A stretch of 63,813 bases of DNA, the filler included, from Olpidium bornovanus S191 (Eukaryota; Fungi; Olpidiomycota): assembly GCA_017911155.1 (NCBI GenBank). It is 29 parts of 29 records of this genome, joined end to end, with 100 filler letters (N's around TTAATTAATTAA, not from the genome) between each part and the next. Parts side by side here need not be neighbours in the genome. Positions count along the whole stretch, not along the records: positions 42,167 to 46,450 come from JAEFCI010001791.1; 28 more parts are not named here. One strand, written 5' to 3'. Below are positions 16,653-60,048 of the stretch, piece by piece (position 1 is the stretch's first letter; every line of letters starts with the position of its first letter). The position numbers and the translations under genes were made by a program. Under the pieces are notes generated by a model. The model saw only the letters and a list, made by a program, of their open reading frames with translations, made no database searches and was not told the DNA's origin.

Positions 16653-16859
16653 GGATCAGATAATGGACAAATCACCCCGACGTCAGGTGTAAATATGAAA
16701 TCAACAAAAGTTCACGATTAGACCGGTTCTTTTCGGAACTGGGGCGAGCTTCCTCGGATACCCGGGATGCGGGGACGTGTTTCTGTTGCGCCGTGGCCCT
16801 TGTTTTGTTTTGTATACTGAACGGGTCTATAACCGTGGATCAAGCTCACTACGCCACGC

Positions 16860-17640
16860 AACTGCTCACGAAACACAATTTGCTAGAAGCGAGCCCGGTA
16901 AGTACAACCCTGGGACGCAAAGCCATGTACTTCCTTATGGACTAATAGACATTCGATACAGACGCGGCAAGATACATGGAGGTCATCGGTTTGATCCTTT
17001 GGTCGACGTCCATGACGCAACCGGACCTCACGTTTTGCCGTATTATTCCTCGCGCATTCTTACGCCAAGCCGACAACATCGCGTTGGGCAATGGCAGAAC
17101 GGGTAAATGCGCTACCTTAAAGGAGCTGCGCACCTCGGAATCCGCTACAATGGACCAAGCGAACTCGACACATTCAAAATGCACGGCGAATCGTCTGGGC
17201 AGGGTGCCGCGAGACCCGCGGCGTCGACCACCGGATTCGCGGGGAGACCAATCTCTTAACAATATGTGCTCGACAAAGATACGCGGCCACATCGTCATGC
17301 GAGGCCGAGTTTGTTGCTTGCTCCACAGCGGCACAGGAAATGAAATAGCTAAGGTCGCCCCCCCGGCAGCATCAACCCAGATGTCATCAAGGGAGCATCA
17401 CCCTTCTATATCGATAATGACGGAGCGGCTGAGCCAGCGGGGGACATCAAGGTATCAAAAAGATCTAAGCACATCGATACCAAGTTTCATCGTCCGAGGC
17501 AGTGTGCCGCGGATCGAGAGGTCCGGATCGAGCGCGTTGCCCCCCGCGGATAACCCCGGCTGACCTTCTCACGAAGCCATCAGACAGAGTGAAATTCGTA
17601 AAGTTCAGAACGACGCTCGGTATGCGGGGCAGCATGTCAA
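16860..17640 (+). mobile_element. Degenerate Ty1/copia RT-RNase H fragment (frameshifted)
   Basis: YMEVIGLILWSTSMTQPDL; RYLKGAAHLGIRYN; SSCEAEFVAC; IDNDGA; RSKHIDTKFH; DNP/ADLLTKP, spread over several frames. Confidence 0.88.
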
Positions 17641-34858: not shown

Positions 34859-37800
34859 AAAGCGGCGGCGCGTGAATAGGGCTAGTGACGTCGGCGTGAA
34901 TCTGGAAGCGACCACGTACCCGTCTTCCGCGACCAGGCTTTCGATGCTCTGCAAGACTTTCGTGAGCACCGTCCGCATGTGCGCTCGCATTGGGTGCTCC
35001 GCCAAGTCCCCGGGGACCTCGTCCGCGGGCTCCGAAGTTTTTCCCACGGCTTTTTTCTTGAACGACACGGGCGTGTCTCCCCGCGAAGCGCCCTCGTCGT
35101 CGTCCTCCCTCTTCCTCCGGCCGCGTCTTTTCCGCGCCTCCGAACCTTCGTCCGCATCGGCCGAGGCGCCGCTGATCCTGCTCTGTCGCCGATCGCGCGG
35201 GGTGCTGGCGCCTGAGCGGGAGGGCGAGCTCCGGCCGCTGCCGGCAGCGTAGCTCGAGAGGCTGCCCTCCTCGTCCTCGTCCGCCTGCTCATCCCGGTAC
35301 TCTTCGCCTTCCGGCAGAGCTCCGTCTTCCCGGGGCTCGGACCGTTCCCGGGCCTCCTGCGCCGCGCGCTTTTTCGCCCGCTTTTCCATCTGGAGCCGCT
35401 TTTTGTGCACCTTTTGGTTCAGCGCCTCCTCGGCATCCATTTCTTCGTTCTGCATCGCCTCCATCCACTGCTCGTCCGTCAAGCCGTCCGCGTACTGCAC
35501 GGCCGTCCTGACGCGCCGACCCTTGCCAAACTCCTCCTCCGCGGACTCGACCTGCCGCATCCGCTCCTCGGCTCCAATGTCTCTCAGGTACACCTTCGGG
35601 AGCTCATTTTCCTGGATAAGCCGCGGCGCCGGAGGGCCCCAGTTGCCTCTTGCCCTCCACTGCTGCTCTTCCGCCTGCTCGCGCTCTCGGTCCATCTCGC
35701 GGAAGATTTCGGCCTCCTCGTCGGAGCGCGCGATCACCTCGTTTATTTCCTCGTCGTCCATGACCTCCGTCTCGTTCGCATCGTTTTCCTCAGGATCATT
35801 GGCCAGCAATGCCCTCTGGAACCAACAAGTCGTAAACCGATCAGAGGCGAATTCGCAGTATGATGATCAGGGAAAACAGAGAAATGAACCGCATCGACGC
35901 GGCATCCCGTACCAGCAGCGCGTCCCGGTCCTCTCCCGACGTCTTGTTGTCGAACTTCCCAGCTTGGATGACCTTCCCGTCGATGTCAAGTTTATACTGC
36001 GCCCGCGCGAGGATGTTCTCCTCAACGGACTTCTCAGTGATAAGCCGGAGGATGCGGACCTCTTTGGTCTGGCCGATGCGGTGTGCGCGGTCCTGAGCCT
36101 GTAGGTCCTGGTGCGGATTCCAGTCCGAGTCGAAAATAATGACCGTGTCGGCGGTCTGGAGGTTGAGCCCAAGGCCCCCGGCGCGCGTGGACAGGAGGAA
36201 GACGGAGACGTCCGACTCTGGGTCATTGAACTGCCTGAGCAGCTCCGACCGGTCGTCGGCCTTGATCGTGCCGTCCAGGCGAAGGTATTTGTAACCGCGG
36301 AAATGCAGGAAGTCTTCCATGATGGTCATGATCGTTGTCATTTGGAAAAAAATCAGCACGCGGTGGCCGGTCCGGAAAAACTTGGGGAGTATCCGGTCCA
36401 GCAGCTCGAATTTGCCGGACACTCGGTACAGCTTCTCGTCGTTCATGTTTGCCGGGTTGATCAACCGCTCCACATCTTCGAAGACGTACGGGTGGTTGCA
36501 GATCTTCCGCAGCTGCATGATCGTGTTGTTCAGACCTTTTACGCCTGACTTTCCTTTGATCCCGTCCGTCGTGTATAGCATGCCGTAGCTTTTCATTTGG
36601 TTGTAGAGCTTTACCTGCAGGGCGGACATCCTGCATTTGACTATCCGCTCGACCTTGTCCGGCAGCTCGGCCTCCACATCCTTCTTCAGCCGCCGAAGTA
36701 GGAACGGCCGGAGTACCTTGTGCAGGCGTTTGATCACCAGCAGCTGCTCTTCTTCCGTCAGCGCAATTTTCTCCTGGCCACCCTGCGACGAAAAGGGGGG
36801 ATTGAACCACTCGTCGAAACTTTTCACGGAATTGAATATCCTGGGCAGCACGAAGTTCAGCAACGCCCACAGCTCCGGGAGATTATTCTAGGGGGGGTGG
36901 GGAAGGAAGGAAACGAGCAGTCAGCCGCAGGAAACTCAGACCTTGGGAATATAATCCTCTATTCGACTTCAGTCCTTCCTCACCTGCAGAGGAGTTCCAG
37001 TCAAGATCAGCCGGTACCGAGTGGTATAATATTGTGTTAGAACCATGGTGAGTTTGCTCTGGGTATTCTTCATCCGGTGACCTTCGTCGATGATCATGTG
37101 AACCCATTTGACTTTGGCAAGCGTGGGCCGATCCTTGATGATGTACTCGTAGGTGGTGAGCAGGACATGAAAGTTCATCTGGCGAACCTCCGCTTGCAGA
37201 GCTTTCCGCTGGCTGGGAACGCCTTTGTACACTATTTTCGACACGGACGGAGCCCACTTCTCGAATTCGAGTGTCCAGTTGGTAAGGGTCGAGAGCGGCA
37301 CGATAATAAGGAACGGGCCGTTCTGCTTCTTGACCTCCATCAGGTGTGTGATCAGCGAGATGGTCTGGATGGTCTTGCCGAGTCCCATCTCGTCGGCCAA
37401 GATGCCGTTCAGGCGGTTGTTGTACAGCGACACCATCCACTGCAGGCCCTTGAGCTGGTATTCCTTGAGCGCGCCGCCGACAAGGATAGACGGCTGCTCG
37501 TGGACCACCTCTTTGATCCTGTGGGCCTCGCCGTAGTAATCGCGCTTGACCTTTGCTTCTTCAAAGGCCTGTCCTTCGTCGTCCATCAGCTCCACTCCGC
37601 CGCGCATAGTGGGGTCGCTGTGCAGCTCGTCAGCCTGCTGGGCGCGCACGCTTTGGGCAAGGTTGTTGAGATACTCGTCCGTCTGCTGGAGGAGGTGAGT
37701 GATGCGCGTGTCCTTGGCCTGGTCCACCAGCTTCAAATACGCCTCTTCGTCATCATTCTTCAGGGCCGACAGACGGGCTTTGGACATCCTGTCCGCTTTC

Positions 37801-38769
37801 TTGGCCTCCTCCTTTTCCACCGTGTTGTGATAGGCCATGACCTTCCGGGTCAGGACCCCTACGCGGTTCTGCTGGCCGAGGTGGAAGCGAGTCATCTCCG
37901 TACGGTGGTTGAGCACAGTAGCGAGAAAATCGTGGTGCTTCTGCTTTTCGCGGCGGTCGCGTTCTGCGCGCTGTTGTCGCTCCAGGCGCTCCGTCATGCG
38001 GGCTTCCCGCAGGGACTGCTTTTTCATGCGCCGGTAGGCGGCCCGGTCGCCCTGCGTCACGAGCGTCGTCGCGCGGGTCATGCCTTTGACCATCTCCTCG
38101 CGCAGCCGGCGCTGCCGGCCGAGAAGTCGGAGCGCCTTCAGCTCGATGAGCGCCTTCAGTTTCGACGACCCGCTCGGCGCCACCTCCAGCATGGCATCGT
38201 CGAAGTACATCGGCCCGCCCAAGGCCTCGTTGCTGAGGTTGCTCGGCATTTCCTCCAGTTCACGGATCCGCTGGTCGATCCGAGTGCGAATCTGACGTTC
38301 ACGTTCCTGCGCGAGGGCGATCGGGTCCAACCCCACCGGGTTCAGGACCGGCACGATCATGCGCTGCTGCCTCGCGTTGTGAGCCAGGGTCTTCTTCAGC
38401 TGCGCGTACGCCGGAGAAAAGCCGCTGTACTTCTGCGCTATCGCGGGGAACTTGGTCGGCTTCTGCGCAGGTGCGGAGGTAGCCGGAGGCGGCTCATGGT
38501 GCGTAACAGCCGCCTCGACTATCTTTTTCGAGAGGTCGCCAGAGGCCGGGGACACCGCCGGAATACTGGATACCGGAGGACCCAGACTGAAAACCGCTTC
38601 CTGGAGATTGCCCGGGAGAGGGAGGTTTCTCGATATGAACTTGTACGCCATGATTTGAAGCCTCAGGGCAGAGAGCTGGGCTTGGGTGTACGGGTGCGTC
38701 GCCGAACCAGGGGCAGCTTTTGACGATTGCGAAGCCTGGGCCGCTGTCCCAGACGGGGCGCCTCTATTG
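34859..38769 (-). CDS. SNF2: SWI/SNF-family chromatin remodelling ATPase (Snf2/Sth1/Brm), both ends truncated
   Basis: QLQ ([13 protein letters not shown]); HSA; [36 protein letters not shown]; [10 protein letters not shown]; [20 protein letters not shown]; [11 protein letters not shown]; SnAC-like [20 protein letters not shown]. Confidence 0.97.
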
Positions 38770-39094
38770 NNNNNNNNNNNNNNNNNNNNNNNNNNNNNNN
38801 NNNNNNNNNNNNNTTAATTAATTAANNNNNNNNNNNNNNNNNNNNNNNNNNNNNNNNNNNNNNNNNNNNAAGGGCCGAAGCGCAGGAAAGCGCAGGCGAC
38901 ATTCGAGATCAGAGAGGCGCAAGAGCAAATGCGCCCCGGCCGCCAAACGTGCGTGAGGCCACGACTTTAAGACGAAGACCTTGATCATGTTTTCTTTTTC
39001 TTTGGTCCGAAAGTCCGGCGGCAAAAAAAAATGGGGGAAAAACAAAAGATAAAGCCGTTCCGCTTAGAATCCTGAAGCGTCCGCCTGAACGCAC

Positions 39095-39599
39095 AAGATG
39101 ACGTCCACGAGGTCGACGATGTTCTGGTGTGGTTTCAGCCGCCGCAAGGCCTGGATCTCCCTGAGGCCTTCCACTTCTTCGAAGCTGTTGAAATGCTTCC
39201 GAAACCGTTTCATCGCGTAGACCTTTGAAGTTTTGCGATGCTTCACCTTGAGCACCTCGCTGTTCCGTTGGAAACGGGGTTGCGGGGTGGGCGTCAAAAC
39301 CGGAAGCATTTGCGGGGGAAAGAAGGCTGGGAGGGGAGTTTGAATTCGACTGTCCCCTAGATAGGAGTCCGAGGGGGGGGGGGGGGGCGTCAGATCACCT
39401 GAATGTTCCCGCACCCAGCTTGCACAAAAGGCGAAAATCTAGAAAGCGGTGCCCGATCGCTCGCGCAGTCAGCAGACGATTCCGAGAAGCGTGTCGTTTT
39501 CATTTTCCTTTTTTTTCCGCTTAATTTTTTTTTTTTTTTGGTTTTTCGCGGAAGGGGGGGGGGGGGGGGGGGAAGGGGGGGCATGGCACCACCTTCCAT
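39095..39599 (-). CDS. MOK: MOK/RAGE-type (MAK/ICK/MOK group) CMGC kinase, N-terminal exons (39593-39599, 39399-39438, 39095-39259)
   Basis: Spliced MEDFRLLCKLGAGTFSEVLKVKHRKTSKVYAMKRFRKHFNSFEEVEGLREIQALRRLKPHQNIVDLVDVI. GTFSEV and LREIQALRRL.PH.NI match MOK as recalled. Confidence 0.82.
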
Positions 39600-41942: not shown

Positions 41943-43095
41943 CCCCCCCCCCACCCCCCCCCCCCTCCCCGTCCCAGAAAAAAACAAACCGCCCCTTCCC
42001 TCTCTCGTCGGAGGGAGATTCCCCCATCCCCCCTTTCCCTCTGCGCTTATCGAACAGAGTAGTGCCNNNNNNNNNNNNNNNNNNNNNNNNNNNNNNNNNN
42101 NNNNNNNNNNTTAATTAATTAANNNNNNNNNNNNNNNNNNNNNNNNNNNNNNNNNNNNNNNNNNNNATATAGTACGTGGCAGTTCGCGCAGCTCAACAGA
42201 TGCCAAGTGCCAGCAATAGATGCGTGGATTTAGTAGTTGAAACCGTTTGAAAACGCGTGATAGCAATAGCAGTGGCGTCCTGCCATGTACGAGCCGTGTC
42301 AGAGACACTCTGATCCAGAATCCAGCGAGCGGGCGTGCGGGGCGGGCTGGGCACGAGGACCGGGCGGGTGGGGCTGACGGTGGCCGGGGGAGGTGCGGCG
42401 CACAATTGCCCCACCCAAACGAGACTACCAATCCACGACAAGACACCGAGACAAAACTCGCTGGCCACCAGATCAAAAGCTAGAATCAGCCAAAAGAGGA
42501 ATTTGATCTGGCTAAAATCGTTACTAAGGAACCAGGGTAAGTGAATGCCGCAGAACTGTAAACCATACCAGAAAGCATGGTGGAAAGGCTTTAAATGGAG
42601 GAAAAGAGGCCATGTCTGATGGGTCCATGCATGGGCCCATTTTCCTCAGCGTGTGAGACGGAGAGGAAACGCCCCCATGGTTGCATGACGATGGAAGGAA
42701 GGAAAATTGGGAAGACGTTGCGTACGTTGCCTTTAGCGCGGTTCAGAAGGAAGGAAGGAAGAATATGGGGGGGGGGGGGGGAGGACGGCCATGGTCAGCA
42801 TACTTTTCGCTAATATGGGGGCTGACTTTAAACTGTGATTGCTCCTCACAGGGTCACCAGTTCAAAACGTCTCCCGGCTCGTTCAAAAGGCCTGTTCAAG
42901 GGCCTTAAAATCCTAAGATCATTCCGGTACCGGTCAGCCGTCGCTGAGATCCAACAGTTCTATGTCAGGAGTCATATTCACGCTGAACATGCTCGGAAAG
43001 GTCCTACGTGGCGTACGTGACGACGAGTTGGTCAAAACCTTTGAATTTTTTGACGCTTTGGAAGGAAGGACGGAGGAAAGCGGGGGGGATGACCT

Positions 43096-43130
<35 letters not shown>

Positions 43131-44505
43131 GGCTCGCCGAAAGAAAAAAGGGGTGGCGGCGGAAGGCGGCGTTTTTGTGCCAGGTCTGCCCGGCTCCACC
43201 CTCTAAACTAGTGTGGGGGACAGCGGGGGTGAGTGGCGGCCAACCGGGTTCTGCTGGGCCACAAAATGGGCCTAAACCCACTGTCGGCGGGAAACAAATA
43301 CGTAATGATGGCCATCGTCGGCGGCTCGTGACGACTTGCAGCCTACTTCCTCCCGACAAAAAAGGATAATGGTAACTCAGCCGCTGTCACCGACTACATC
43401 ACATTCTTGGAGCGGGTGACCGGCCGCAAGCTCTTGGTTCATCGATCCGATCACGGCGGGGAATTTCTCGGTGGTCGCTACACCGAGGTGTTCCGCAGCC
43501 GCGGGATCACGCAAGAAACGATAATACGAGAGACACCAGAATAGAATGGCGGCGCGAAACGTGTCGGCCGGACCACCCAAGGTCACGTGCGCGCAATCAT
43601 GATTGCGGCACATCTACCCATCAAGTTGTGGGACGAGATCTGGGGTGCGTGCGCCCACCTCTACAATCGGTCACCGCACTCCAGGATTGACGGCCTGCTC
43701 CCGCACCCCAGGATTGACGGCCTGCTCCTGCACGTGGTCTTCCACCATGGCGAAGATGCCGTTATTCACCCGGTCAATCTTGACTACGTACGCATTCTCG
43801 GCTTGATCGTTTATGCGCATCTACCTAAAGCGCATCGCGCCAAGGACACCTCCGGCAAGTTGGCACCAACGGGCGAAAAGTTCATTCTCGTTGGCTACCC
43901 TGCCGGGCCAAAGGGCTACCGACTCTGGGATCCTCGTACCGACCACATCATCGATAGACACGATGTCACCATTGACGAATCTTGCAAGTATGATCCTGCT
44001 GAATTTGGTCAACCATCGGTTAACAACCGACTAGAGGCGACTGATGTGCCCGATTCGCCCAAGGAAGAATATGAGGTCGAACGTGTTGTCTGCCATATTT
44101 GGGACGGCAGTGTACCGCGGTTCAACATCAAATGGTGCAACTACCCAATTAGCCCATTGACCTACGAACCGTTCGATCATCTCCTCAACGCAGCGTCAAA
44201 GGTTTCCAAATATTGTCGACATCACAAGATACCTGTGCCGGGCCACAACATGGACTCCGCTTCCGCCCAAATCAGCGTTGCCACGTTTGCCGCCCAGGCA
44301 GGCAGCGGCCATGAGATTACCTACCCGCCAGAGCCGACCACTTACGCGGCTGCCATGGCATCTCTCAAGGCTGCATGTTGGCAAGACGCGATGTAGGCTG
44401 AACACGACGCGCTTTGGTCATTTCCCACATTTCGTAAGGTCGCCCGGCCGGCTGATCGTCATATCCTCTAGGGCAAATGAGTCTACAAGCGGAAGCTGCA
44501 CCCGG

Positions 44506-45115
44506 TGTGGAAGAAAAAGCCAACCAAGCCCTATTGGTGGTAAGGGTGTGCTGGAGGGACAGCGGCGTCAAGCTGAGACTTGGGCGGAGCCGTCACATCG
44601 CTCAGGAGGGGACCTGCATTCTCCGAGTATGCGAGTCACTTCTCCAACTGGTACCAATGATTGGAGGATGCCGAGAGTACACGGTGAAGGCAATGTGTGA
44701 CGCAGTGGCTAACACGAGTCCGCGGCAGGGCGAACAGGACAACGCGTCACGGGGGAGGGTACTGTAATTAAAAGAGGCTACGCGTAAAACCCCAACCCCT
44801 GTTCACGCGCGAATTCCGGTCGCAAAACTCGCACCGCTCCACTCTCCGCCGAGGAGAACCCCGCCGCCGCCGAGGCGAGACTTCGTCTTAGAGAATAGAG
44901 AACACGACGTTCAGAACCCCCATCTACCTTGCCGCCGAGGCGAGTAATTTCAGAGAATAGTTTGGTGTATTTGGGCCCCGTTCAGAGTAGCCGCCAAGGC
45001 ATAGAAAGAAGAGAAAGGAGACAGAGAAAAGAAGAAAACAGACACCCGGCCTTAGCACCCCAGCGGTCGCCGAAAGAGACTGCCTTTGGGACAAGCAGAG
45101 CCATTCTTGCCCACA
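44506..45115. mobile_element. 610-bp nested insertion (solo-LTR-like) inside the copia RT
   Basis: TGTGG...CCACA termini; flanks CCGG/CCAG (4-bp TSD, one mismatch). Excision restores YKRKLHPDGRVAKYKAR in frame. Confidence 0.8.
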
Positions 45116-45625
45116 CCAGACGGCCGTGTCGCAAAATACAAGGCACGATACGTCGCGCATGGGTTCATGCAAACAAAGGGCATTGACTATCACGAGACGT
45201 TTTTACCGGTTGTATCAGCACCGGCTCTACGATCTATCATCGCGCTCGCATCACGACATCATTGGCCGATCCGGCAGGTCTGGCCTACCTCAATGGTCGC
45301 CTAGATGTCGATATCTACATGAAACAAATCGAAGGATGTGCTGATGACTCCAGTGACGTACTGCAGCTATTTCGCGTGCTTTACGGTTTATAGCAGTCAG
45401 GTCGGGTCTGGAATCAGGCTCTCGACGCAGAACTGCTCCGTCTTGACTTTACGGCTCTCCGGTCGCCGCTCGAGGGGGGGGCAGAGACAGACAATCAACA
45501 GACCAGCACCGCCGACGAACGGGTGACCTTGACGGGCGAATGGGTGACCTTGACACATTTGGCATTCCTCGCGTGATCATCGCGGTGTTCATCGCTGATC
45601 TTATAATCACTGGCTCAGATGATAC

Positions 45626-45989
45626 TGTGGCGGGCCCGCCGAGAAGGACCACCGACGGGGGCTCAAGGCGGGTTCTCTTTACGAAGACGATTGTTTAGCT
45701 TCGGGGCTCGGGGAGGGTGCGAGAGGGGAGATGGAGGTGGCCGGTGGTGTGTGCTCTTTAGCCGGTGGTATGTTCTCTTTACCGGTCGTCGGCGCCGGCG
45801 GGGTGTTGTGTTCACCGGTCACGGCGGCAGCGCCGGTGAGGGGGGGTGGCGCTATTCTAGGGGGGGAGCTAGCACTGCCGGCGAGTCGGGGACCACCTGC
45901 AACAACACCCCGGCGGCACAGTCTGCCACTCTGGACTACACCACGGCGGCACAGCGGCACAGTCCGCCGGTGCGGCACAGCCCGTGACA
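45626..45989. mobile_element. 364-bp solo LTR nested in the copia RT
   Basis: TGTGGCGGGC...GCCCGTGACA termini; perfect 5-bp TSD GATAC. Excision restores ITGSDDTAITAMESRLEQKFKM in frame. Confidence 0.88.
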
Positions 45990-47253
45990 GATACGGCGAT
46001 CACCGCAATGGAATCTCGACTTGAACAGAAATTCAAAATGACCAAAGGGCAAAATTTCTCGTTCATTCTCGGCATCTGTATCAGCACATCCTCGACGGCT
46101 CGCTCTCTCCCTCAGCTGTTGGAGCGATTCTCGATGCTGGACGCCCGCGCGGCTGTGACCCCGTTTGAGAGCGGTGCAGTCGAACAGCTGAGCATCCAAT
46201 TGACGTTCACGGAAAATCTAGACGATGACGCCGACAAAGAGATCTCCTGCTACGCAGAGGTCATTGGTTCTCTTCTCTGGCTGTCAACAATGACGAGACC
46301 AGACATCAGCTTTGTGACGTCCTTCCTCGCATGATTCACAGCCAATCCGCACCCAAAGCATTGGAACGGCGCGAAGCGCGTTCTCAGATATTTACGCCGG
46401 ACGTTGCACCACGGGATTTGCTACCATATCGGCGACAATACCGCAAAAAANNNNNNNNNNNNNNNNNNNNNNNNNNNNNNNNNNNNNNNNNNNNTTAATT
46501 AATTAANNNNNNNNNNNNNNNNNNNNNNNNNNNNNNNNNNNNNNNNNNNNCACGGAAATGATCAATATGCGGAGATTGTCTACCGTATGGGAGCTAGAGT
46601 CGCAATGAGGATGATATTGAGGAGCGCGTATATTTTTACCCACGTCATAAACCACTGTTGCTTACGGCATGGAACCGAATCCATATTGTTCATAGACTGC
46701 ATCATGTATCCACCATAATCTTACGGTCGCTCGTTCGGCCGAGGAGCGTTGTGGAAACTTCAGTCCCGGCCACCTGTTACCCTTTTTGGAATACACCAAC
46801 AGAATATCGAGACACAACAAAAAAAAGAAACAATCCCGGCGTGCGTGCGTTCGTGCGTGGCAAAAAGAGAGAGACGCCGCCCGCGAGCCGCCTTCCCGAA
46901 TCGCCCGGCCCAAAAACCGTTGAGCCTCTGTCCCCAATAAAAATAAAAACAAGGCGCCTCTTTAGGGGGGCTTTCTTTGTTTTACCTGGCTCGAAAGCGG
47001 CAGCCGCGTGTTTTTCCCCAAATTGCGCTCAATTTACCTCCCAAATGCGCTTGCAATTTTCTTTGACCTCCGTCAAATTGTGGGATGCGGCGTGAAACGG
47101 AAGTCAAACAAAACGCTACTGCCCCAAACGAAAGGAACCTGGCCCCGAAACGCGCAGTTTTTTTGTTTTTTTTTTTTTTTTTTTTTTTTTTTTGGCGTGT
47201 ACCGGATATATTTATCCCCGCGCAGGCGGTAATAAGGGTCGCCAAACCCGAAT

Positions 47254-53019: not shown

Positions 53020-53279
53020 CGAACGCTCGGTGACGTCACGTGCCCGTCACGTTCCGCGGCCGACGCCACACTTCGCACCGAACCCGCTCCGCGGCGGTCG
53101 GAGCTCGCGCTCCCCTTCGAAANNNNNNNNNNNNNNNNNNNNNNNNNNNNNNNNNNNNNNNNNNNNTTAATTAATTAANNNNNNNNNNNNNNNNNNNNNN
53201 NNNNNNNNNNNNNNNNNNNNNNCATGAAATACTAACTTGTTTTACCTGTTCCAAATCTCTTCTCAAAAATGTCACTGCA

Positions 53280-53480
53280 GACAAATCCGAATTCACCGCT
53301 CTGACCGCGGAGGCGAATATGTCTTGCAGAGTTACCAGCAGTACCTGGAGAATGCCTGTATCTGACCCAAATCAAATATCCGGGAAACTCCTGAACAGAA
53401 TGGAGCAGCCGAACGTTTCAATTGCACGATTGAAGAATGCATCAGCGTGACGCTACATTCGACGCAACTTTTCATATTGC
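53280..53480 (+). mobile_element. Ty1/copia integrase core fragment
   Basis: IHRSDRGGEYVLQSYQQYLEN...IRETPEQNGAAERFNCTIEE, with an in-frame stop. Confidence 0.85.
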
Positions 53481-53908
53481 GCACGCACCAAGCTGCGTGG
53501 AGGCGGAAGTCCCCGGCACCAGCGTACAAATTCTCGCGCAGGGTCCGCGGGTGCTCGGCGATAGCATCCGCGGATTCACGGCGGCAGGATTTGCCTCAGG
53601 ATTTGATCGCCGGCGCAGAATTCACAGCAGGATTTGCCAGGAGGACGCGCCGCAAAATTTACACCCCGAAGGCGAGCGGGATGGTGGACAATGGGAGGGA
53701 GAGCAGCGAACGCGCGCTGGTTTCTCCTGAAACTCAAACGTTTGTGGCGCCCTGCCGACCAGTCGTGTGGTCACGTGATGCACAAGTGCGCCGGAAAATC
53801 GTAAACAAACCGCCGCGCCGACTGGGACACGCCCTTTTTCCCGTTTTGCACTGCGAGCCCGCGACGTACCGCGACTCCCGTCTCCCGTCACTTCAATACC
53901 AACGCAAC

Positions 53909-58599: not shown

Positions 58600-59165
58600 T
58601 GCAACGTCGTCCGATTCCGCGTCCTGGGTTTCCGTCCCCCATGCCCCTTAGTCGCCTTCAGACCCGAACTCATGCGGGATCGCTTGGTATCAGAAAATCT
58701 TTCTCGTTTGTCCGAGATCTGGGCTCGGCGCCGACGTCGCTCGGAGCCCGCTCTTGTCTTCCAAGAAATGGACGCCACGGCTTCACAGAGTGCAAACATG
58801 GGGATGGGAAGCGGAGAGATAAACTGTCGTGTAGCCGTGTCCCAAACCTTCCAACGCTTCTGCCGGTCGACGTAGCCCACGAATGCCATGGGCTTTGCGT
58901 TTGGCACTAGTTACTAATCTGCGCCGCTCCTTCGGCACATGTACAAAGGCGAGACAACCAAAAATGCGGAGGTGCCTTAGGGATGGCACCCAGCCCGCCC
59001 ATGCTTCGAATAGACTCATTCCAGGGGCGGTGTGTGGAACACGGTTGTACCAATGAAGCACGCATGCCGGCGCCTCCGCCCAAGAGCGTTCCGGCACATT
59101 GTGGTGTAGGAGTCGGCAGCGTGCCCGCTTGAGTAGCGTTCGGTTGACGCGTTCTTTCATTCCAT
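58600..59165 (-). mobile_element. Ty1/copia integrase C-terminal / SH3-like fragment, degenerate
   Basis: ERVNRTLLKRARC...WAEA...YNRVPH...FEAWAG..PSLRHLRIFGCLAFVHVPKERR; FVGY...WKVWD. Confidence 0.87.
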
Positions 59166-60048
59166 TTTGGTGGGGTGTCTTTCACCGTCAGCTGTACGCG
59201 TGGCGTGTACCTTCAGCGAAAGCTGCCCATTCGCCGATGACGCACTCTCCTCCCCCGTCTTTTGCACTATAAAAAAACCCCCCGTCTTCTTGGAGACGGT
59301 TGGGTCCATATCCTGTCCCCAGTTGCACGGCTTCGGCGTACGCTCGGAAGCCTGTGGCGGCTTAGTGATGGTCTCTATCTCTCTGTCTGCTCTGCTCGTC
59401 GCCGTCGTCATCGCCGTCATTCTCAGAAGGGAACGGTCTTACGGGTGCCGTCCTGCCCAGGAGTGCAAAACGTTTGCAGGGAATAAGTAGCAAGTTCTGC
59501 CGGCACCACTGGGCCTTTGATTTCTCTTTGTCCCCGCCGATCCACGGCTTTGTATCGTCCTTCAGCCGCGCCTTTTTTCCCTCTCTTTTTACGTTTGCTT
59601 TGTCCGTTGCGGGAGTTCGCTTTTGGGAAGGCGGCTTCATTTTGTTGGGCGGGCGCTACACGTATAGGGGGGGAGAGGAACGGATCGCCTCACATTTCCC
59701 ATTCAGCCAGCTGGGATAATTGTAAACGCGGAATTTCTGTTCTTTGATCTGCAATCGCGTTTTTTTTTTCATTAACAGCGTGGCGCAAATGTGCCGATGT
59801 CAGAGGCCGAAGCCCATCGACAAATTCCACAATAAAACCGGTCTGGACATGACCGGGCTAGAACGATCATTTCCTGGTTTGCTTTGCGCTGTGCGATGTC
59901 ACTCCATTGCAACGCGGATAGGCCTGAGGTGCTCGGCTCTACGGCAGGNNNNNNNNNNNNNNNNNNNNNNNNNNNNNNNNNNNNNNNNNNNNTTAATTAA
60001 TTAANNNNNNNNNNNNNNNNNNNNNNNNNNNNNNNNNNNNNNNNNNNN

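What the first reader, a model, noticed from the sequence alone, without database searches (positions are those of the whole stretch)
43200..44500. Ty1/copia retrotransposon with a chromodomain at the integrase C-terminus
Seen: one frame runs copia integrase (RSDHGGEF, TPE*NG, YNRSPH), then the SH3-like module (LVGY...KGYRLWDP...DVTIDE), then EEYEVERVVCHIWDGSVPRFNIKWCNYPISPLTYEPFDHLLNAASKVSKY (44064-44213), then the copia RT start (EPTTYAAAM...W..AM). Integrase-before-RT order and the RT motifs make this Copia, not Gypsy. The insert fits the chromodomain consensus (Y-EVE, F/Y-x-I/V-KW-x-x-Y, T-W/Y-EP, L) and keeps aromatic residues at the three cage positions (Y, W, Y). Established: integrase chromodomains are the hallmark of chromoviral Ty3/Gypsy elements and are rare in Copia. 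Inference: a chromatin-reading, possibly heterochromatin-targeting Copia lineage in a zoosporic fungus, acquired by domain capture. The fusion is in frame with no junction scar, which argues against a nested Gypsy fragment.
Basis: partly seen in the sequence, partly recalled or inferred. Interest (0 to 1): 0.8.

Follow-up and report, generated by a model that had tools for sequence, protein, structure and literature searches.

The report
Fungal Copia retrotransposon carrying a chromodomain
A decayed copia-type jumping gene carries a true chromodomain right behind its integrase, as do many relatives including ones from zoosporic fungi; the domain likely steers new insertions into silent chromatin, and the design was reported before in diatoms.

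Summary
One reading phase runs Copia integrase, SH3 module, chromodomain and RT start. The insert passes Pfam Chromo's cut-off, folds like Chp1/HP1 chromodomains and keeps the Y/W/Y cage. The copy is dead: stops, frameshifts, changed catalytic motifs, two nested solo-LTR-like inserts. It is not a misassembly or a Gypsy scrap: contigs of other runs cross the borders, and 24 of 225 other Copia linkers carry the domain at the same place, seven records in uninterrupted polyproteins. Named relatives come from Olpidium bornovanus and Powellomyces hirtus. The architecture is not new: diatom CoDi-A Copia were reported with a putative chromodomain in 2009 (PMC2774666), and this scan noted the same design in other chytrid genomes. 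I found no paper on a fungal lineage. Two additions: the closest intact relatives have lost two cage residues, and all 15 chromodomain-bearing relatives with a Gag have a Ty3/Arc-like Gag, not the usual Copia type. Heterochromatin targeting is inferred, not shown.

The parts
43284..43769 (+). Copia integrase core and C-terminal part, broken (stops at 43329 and 43542; K where intact relatives have the E of the NGxAER motif; that this E is the catalytic one is recalled knowledge)
   Evidence: tblastn to P0001 residues 686-1068, E 1e-74; rve E 0.005; alignment
43680..43733 (+). 27-nt tandem duplication; the second copy seen in the runs has a 27-letter gap against this stretch
43770..43991 (+). 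SH3-like module of Copia integrase (PF25597)
   Evidence: E 7e-18; pLDDT about 90
44064..44240 (+). Type I chromodomain (cage Y 44070, W 44133, Y 44142; TWE motif reads TYE) with a clade-specific basic tail after the helix
   Evidence: Pfam Chromo 30.5 bits; Clr4 chromodomain E 8e-6; fold Z 8.6, rmsd 1.4 A over 54 residues to Chp1; tail
44325..44505 (+). Start of Copia reverse transcriptase, with stops at 44394, 44469, 44478
   Evidence: collinear with P0003 up to residue 936
44506..45115 (.). Nested 610-nt TG...CA solo-LTR-like repeat, 4-bp target duplication with one mismatch
   Evidence: ends and flanks; other copies in runs X1-X3 stop matching at its ends
45116..45625 (+). RT middle part (RVT_2), frameshifted; the YXDD position reads FIAD
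   Evidence: RVT_2 E 7e-11; 54-65% identical to P0003
45626..45989 (.). Nested 364-nt TG...CA solo-LTR-like repeat with a perfect 5-bp target duplication
   Evidence: multi-copy in runs
45990..46427 (+). RT C-terminal part, cut by the assembly gap at 46451
   Evidence: 50% identical to P0003 residues 1096-1242

Best explanation
This is a dead copy of a Ty1/copia lineage whose integrase is followed in frame by an inherited type I chromodomain, which in active copies likely binds methylated histone H3 (most likely H3K9me2/3) and would steer integration into heterochromatin. Shown: the domain order, the chromodomain's identity and fold, its presence at the same place across the family, and the decay of this copy. 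Inferred: that protease cleavage leaves the domain on the integrase (the likely cut lies in the short hydrophobic stretch just before the RT start; recalled knowledge of Copia processing), that the cage binds methyl-lysine, which mark it reads, and that this directs insertion.
For: Domain: Pfam Chromo above cut-off. AlphaFold model from a 26-row alignment, mean pLDDT 86.5; its top structural matches are Chp1, HP1, Oxpecker, Rhino and SUV39H1 chromodomains, Z 8.6-7.2. Family: 24 of 225 other SH3-to-RT linkers score 20 bits or more for a chromodomain and 5 more score weakly. Pfam Chromo passes its cut-off in 15 of 23 Copia proteins that I picked from the 150 hits and in L001, L004, P0158. Gag-PR-IN-SH3-chromo-RT lies in one uninterrupted frame in P0009, P0010, P0014, its cluster mate P0158, P0019, P0031 and L001. 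22 of 30 aligned domains have a full aromatic cage. In 10 pairs of 5 clade-B loci synonymous sites are saturated while the chromodomain is as constrained as the SH3 module (pN 0.14-0.38 against 0.13-0.34). The window's RT is sister to P0001 and P0003 (SH-aLRT 99), the proteins that best match its integrase in the word search. Context: 21 of 32 listed transitions against a second copy are CpG-type, background 32%, P 8e-5 (only 38 listed differences, not all), which fits methylated chromatin; two further elements have inserted into this copy. Precedent: MAGGY's type I chromodomain binds H3K9me2/3 and its loss lowers transposition (as summarised in PMC3350952, passages; the primary paper was not held).
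Against: The two closest intact relatives, P0001 and P0003, and also P0008, lack the first and third cage aromatics; a second copy in runs X2 and X3 appears to have L at the third position (30-letter loose end); P0017 and P0026 in the same clade have no chromodomain. So methyl-lysine reading is dispensable in this lineage. The window's domain has Y in place of the near-invariant W of TWE. The same review notes that removing Tf1's chromodomain changes integrase activity and substrate specificity, so targeting is not the only known role. Structural matches also include the H3K27me readers Polycomb and CBX7 (Z 6.9 and 6.8), and a shared fold shows no ligand. CpG decay and nesting are expected of any silenced element. 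No insertion-site or chromatin data were available.
Confidence: 0.62

Rival explanations
1. The chromodomain is a real part of the lineage but works without histone methyl-lysine: it tunes integrase activity or binds another host factor or nucleic acid, as type II and Tf1 chromodomains are thought to.
For: The fold and central W persist in P0001 and P0003 without the cage; 8 of 30 domains lack a full cage, one of them only because it is cut short; Tf1 precedent (PMC3350952, passages).
Against: 22 of 30 domains, spread over both tree groups, keep all three aromatics; the clade profile's best chromodomain matches are HP1-family domains, E 5e-13.
Confidence: 0.27
2. This copy has been exapted: a spliced transcript makes an SH3-chromodomain protein for the host.
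For: Near-identical contigs of runs guessed to be RNA cover most of the copy; GT..AG joints 44392>44472 and 44650>44729 skip the stop at 44394 and leave 361 open codons from 43545.
Against: The first joint is in one contig of one run with 25 letters on its short side; the added tail comes from the nested repeat; 5 of 6 allele differences in the frame change the residue; contigs cannot show level or strand; the runs belong to one study.
Confidence: 0.05
3. The chromodomain is a nested Gypsy fragment or an assembly chimera.
For: The window is a patchwork of short contigs. The core of the window's domain does not score best against its own clade's profile (26.6 bits, against 31.4 for clade B and 47.7 for the favoured unrelated profile). 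No single contig spans chromodomain and RT start.
Against: An X2 contig, 44007-44256 with 3 differences, crosses both borders by 57 and 43 letters; a second, about 89% identical copy runs from the integrase core into the domain; relatives have the domain at the same place; the tail after the helix is shared with 7 of 8 full-length clade-A domains and with none of 9 clade-B ones.
Confidence: 0.02

Closest known systems
CoDi-A / CoDi-I Ty1/copia elements of diatoms (Llorens et al. 2009, PMC2774666; Ustyantsev et al. 2017, PMC5348765)
   Same: Copia order with a chromodomain at the integrase C-terminus.
   Different: Reported from Phaeodactylum, described as putative, and placed in Copia Branch 1. 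Here named relatives are zoosporic fungi and the domain passes Pfam's cut-off with a full cage. Kinship with CoDi-A was not testable; the paper's alignment in supplement 2 was not readable beyond its caption.
Chromoviruses (Ty3/gypsy; MAGGY, Tcn1, Tf1) and oomycete Chronos elements
   Same: Chromodomain after the integrase; cage-complete and cage-less forms side by side, like types I and II (PMC6317226, PMC3350952, passages); relatives' Gag resembles Ty3 and Arc.
   Different: Integrase lies before an RVT_2-type RT; the integrase matches Ty1's best; the chromodomain is internal to the polyprotein.
CopiaMBD of arthropods (PMC6673714, passages)
   Same: Copia with a chromatin-reading domain in the same frame next to the integrase, proposed to guide insertion.
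   Different: Reads methyl-CpG DNA rather than histone marks; binding was tested there and is untested here.

Membership tests
Ty1/copia superfamily | Integrase upstream of RT in pol | tested here: met
   IN 43284-43991, RT from 44325, collinear with P0003
Ty1/copia superfamily | Copia-type RT | tested here: met
   RVT_2 E 7e-11, no RVT_1; nested among RVT_2 proteins (the tree has no Gypsy outgroup)
Ty1/copia superfamily | Own LTRs, primer-binding site and target duplication | not testable with these tools
   The contig (42167-46450) lacks Gag, protease and RNase H matches; no whole genome is held
Chromoviruses (Ty3/gypsy) | RT-RNase H-integrase order and Gypsy-type RT | tested here: not met
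Chromoviruses (Ty3/gypsy) | Chromodomain at the integrase C-terminus | tested here: met
CoDi-A / CoDi-I | Copia with a chromodomain after the integrase | tested here: met
CoDi-A / CoDi-I | Placement in the CoDi-A clade of Copia Branch 1 by pol phylogeny | not testable with these tools
CoDi-A / CoDi-I | Diatom host | tested here: inconclusive
   5 of 20 proteins looked up carry an organism name, all fungal; the window's host was not determined
Type I (HP1-like) chromodomain | Three aromatic cage residues | tested here: met
   Y, W, Y
Type I (HP1-like) chromodomain | Three-stranded sheet plus C-terminal helix | tested here: met
   Model strands 103-112, 115-122, 131-134 and helix 135-151; Z 8.6 to Chp1
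Type I (HP1-like) chromodomain | Methyl-lysine binding | not testable with these tools
   Needs a binding assay

The most novel reading that the evidence does not exclude
An old, widespread Copia lineage of zoosporic fungi is a Gypsy-Copia mosaic: it runs a Copia protease, integrase and RT but took both its Ty3/Arc-like Gag and its H3K9me-reading chromodomain from a chromovirus, and then repeated the chromovirus path from cage-complete to cage-less domains.
Probability: 0.25. Interest if true: 0.75.

Novelty: new variant of a known kind. Interest (0 to 1): 0.5.

Why it matters
Reviews treat the integrase chromodomain as a near-diagnostic mark of Gypsy chromoviruses: a plant survey found it in 94% of chromoviruses and in no other group (PMC6317226, passages), and the one Copia exception in print that I found is a putative domain in diatoms. 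A fungal Copia lineage with intact, cage-complete, cage-less and domain-less members gives a natural series in which to test whether a chromodomain is enough to redirect a Copia integrase to heterochromatin. If the Ty3-like Gag and the chromodomain came from one donor, it would be an exchange between the two oldest LTR superfamilies. The copy in this window is itself dead, so its value is as a pointer to the intact relatives.

Tried and rejected
No whole genome was held, so copy number and insertion sites were not examined. A first AlphaFold run on 283 residues with 3 rows gave mean pLDDT 38.5 and was discarded. Foldseek on the two-domain model gave no match at E 0.001 or better, best 3.8e-3 to CDY1. 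A word-index search with the chromodomain alone found 1 candidate and no hit, so no donor was identified; no Gypsy chromodomain was fetched for comparison. The Atlas gave no result, and a viral-contig scan could not be made from the alignment. The careful tree did not finish; all trees are quick LG+G4 trees with SH-aLRT only and no outgroup. Rows left out: 20 of 99 near-duplicates; 7 long-branch, deleted or fused rows and 15 thinned rows; 23 more for the AU test. The chromodomain-bearing elements fall in two or three places on the free trees; holding them together is not rejected (p-AU 0.39), which does not show one clade. A single-sequence search with L001's Gag gave only PEG10 at E 0.078 among natural proteins. 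No RNA holder was listed on record; raw-read run X4 gave 6 partial reads. Look-ups of earlier findings by place and by sequence were blank, as was one on the Gag type. Paper searches; none of the titles or abstract starts listed described a fungal Copia with a chromodomain or a Copia with a Gypsy-like Gag. Subscription papers, Repbase and GyDB entries and most supplements were not searched and may hold such a report.

Full report
What is in the window. The finding lies in a 4.3-kb contig (42167-46450) bounded by assembly gaps; no host gene was found in it. One phase from about 43284 to 44505 is collinear with intact Copia polyproteins P0001 and P0003: integrase core, SH3 module (PF25597, E 7e-18), a 50-residue insert, and the RT start. 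The insert at 44064-44213 scores 30.5 bits on Pfam Chromo against a cut-off of 25.1, and its best solved relative by sequence is the Clr4 chromodomain (E 8e-6). RT continues in four more pieces to 46427, 50-65% identical to P0003 where aligned, and hits RVT_2, not RVT_1. The copy is dead: five stops in the phase between 43329 and 44478, frameshifts, K at the integrase NGxAER glutamate, FIAD at the RT YXDD position, a 27-nt duplication, and two TG...CA inserts of 610 and 364 nt with target duplications. Gag, protease and RNase H are not in the contig.

Is the join real? Three runs of one study hold the stretch as contigs. An X2 contig (44007-44256, 3 differences) crosses both chromodomain borders, and an X3 contig (44218-44371) runs on into the RT start. 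A second copy, about 89% identical, runs from the integrase core to 44105 and its loose end reads as the KW strand of a chromodomain, with L at the third cage position. No single contig spans domain and RT start. The stronger evidence is in relatives.

The family. A phmmer search of 1.84 billion representatives (best 150 of 1709 hits), two word-index searches and 80 of 312 metagenome loci gave 233 sequences with the SH3 module. Of 225 linkers other than the window's, 24 score 20 bits or more against a profile built from five unrelated tandem-chromodomain proteins and 5 score weakly. This is no frequency estimate, because the query itself held the domain. Pfam confirms 15 of 23 chosen Copia proteins and three more records; seven records hold Gag, protease, integrase, chromodomain and RVT_2 in one frame. 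Five of 20 proteins looked up carry an organism name: four Olpidium bornovanus, one Powellomyces hirtus.

The domain. A model from a 26-row alignment has mean pLDDT 86.5; residues 98-151 superpose on the Chp1 chromodomain with Z 8.6, rmsd 1.4 A over 54 residues, with HP1 and Oxpecker tied. 22 of 30 aligned domains have all three cage aromatics, the window's among them. Against a simple reading: P0001 and P0003, the window's sisters, keep only the central W, as plant type II chromodomains do (definition from PMC6317226 and PMC3350952, passages); P0017 and P0026 have lost the domain; and the window has TYE for TWE. In five clade-B loci the domain is as constrained as the SH3 module.

Trees. On RT (79 rows) the window is sister to P0001 and P0003 (SH-aLRT 99) in a 14-row set with 11 chromodomain carriers (95). 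On integrase plus RT (61 rows) a second group of 10 carriers stands apart (99). One origin is neither rejected nor shown (p-AU 0.39, 38 rows). No labelled references or outgroup were available.

The Gag. This concerns relatives only. Among 69 sequences with a Gag hit, all 15 chromodomain carriers match a Gag profile of the clade and not the ordinary one (9 were profile seeds; of the other 6, one is a near copy of a seed and L017's Gag lies downstream and may belong to the next copy). All 37 non-seed elements without a chromodomain match the ordinary profile only; the two exceptions, P0017 and P0026, are seeds inside clade A. The clade's Gag hits PF03732 and Ty3_capsid, the latter above cut-off in P0001, P0014, P0158 and L001. 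Against solved structures its profile matches Ty3 Gag (37.3 bits) and Drosophila Arc (43, 40.8) a little better than Copia VLP (33.7), while the control profile matches Copia VLP at 132 bits; both match Ty1 integrase best. The shared Gag type favours one lineage for both tree groups. It does not prove a Gypsy donor: the margin is small, kin share traits, and I recall that some plant Copia Gags also hit PF03732.

Mechanism. Most likely the processed integrase keeps the chromodomain at its C-terminus and the cage binds methylated H3K9, tethering the integration complex to silent chromatin, as reported for MAGGY (seen only as summarised in PMC3350952). Every step after domain identity is inferred. 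CpG-type transitions are enriched between the two copies (21 of 32, background 32%, P 8e-5), which fits a methylated setting but would hold for any silenced element. GT..AG joints suggest the locus is transcribed and spliced; one weakly supported joint skips a stop, too little to argue for exaptation.

What is known. Llorens et al. 2009 (PMC2774666; passages and one supplement caption) report a putative chromodomain on diatom CoDi-A integrases and none in other Copia; Ustyantsev et al. 2017 (PMC5348765; passages) repeat this. In PMC3248453 (fungal LTR survey) the passages shown tie chromodomains to Gypsy; PMC5445492 (fungal Copia) has no occurrence of 'chromo' and PMC2806351 none of 'chromodomain'. 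PMC6673714 (passages) describes the analogous CopiaMBD. Nine searches listed no paper on a fungal case; I saw only listings for papers not named here. The lead to CoDi-A came from earlier notes of this scan, which also record Copia chromodomains in other chytrid genomes and marine metagenomes; I checked the papers, not those loci.

Verdict. A real feature and a well-supported lineage, of a kind known from diatoms, here in a fungal variant with a Ty3-like Gag and a graded loss of the cage. Interest 0.5.

Noticed in passing
window 44506-45115 and 45626-45989: Two unrelated TG...CA solo-LTR-like repeats with 4-bp and 5-bp target duplications; both multi-copy in runs X1-X3, the first with a GT..AG joint (44650>44729) seen in all three runs.
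   Followed up: partly
window 42167-43230: Repeat-like DNA in place of the element's Gag and protease; run contigs show GT..AG and CT..AC joints at 42536>42650, 42729>42849 and 42902>43007, suggesting spliced transcripts on both strands.
   Followed up: no
window 16718-17627, 53234-53503, 58788-59259: Three more decayed Copia scraps on other contigs; the first (RT end and RNase H) matches P0001 and P0003 better than ordinary Copia.
   Followed up: partly
P0063: Ordinary-Gag Copia polyprotein with a weak methyl-CpG-binding-domain hit (20.6 bits, cut-off 21) between integrase and RT, like CopiaMBD.
   Followed up: no
P0016: Protein with six tandem chromodomains and an N-terminal ADP-ribosyltransferase-family Pfam hit above cut-off.
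   Followed up: no
window 34859-38768 and 39067-39438, minus strand: A Snf2/Sth1-type remodeller gene (QLQ, HSA, SNF2, SnAC) and a kinase exon whose motif I recall as MOK-like, a kinase of flagellated cells; both on other contigs.
   Followed up: no
window, all gaps: The 28 assembly gaps are 44 N, a 12-letter AT filler and 44 N, so neighbouring contigs need not be linked.
   Followed up: yes
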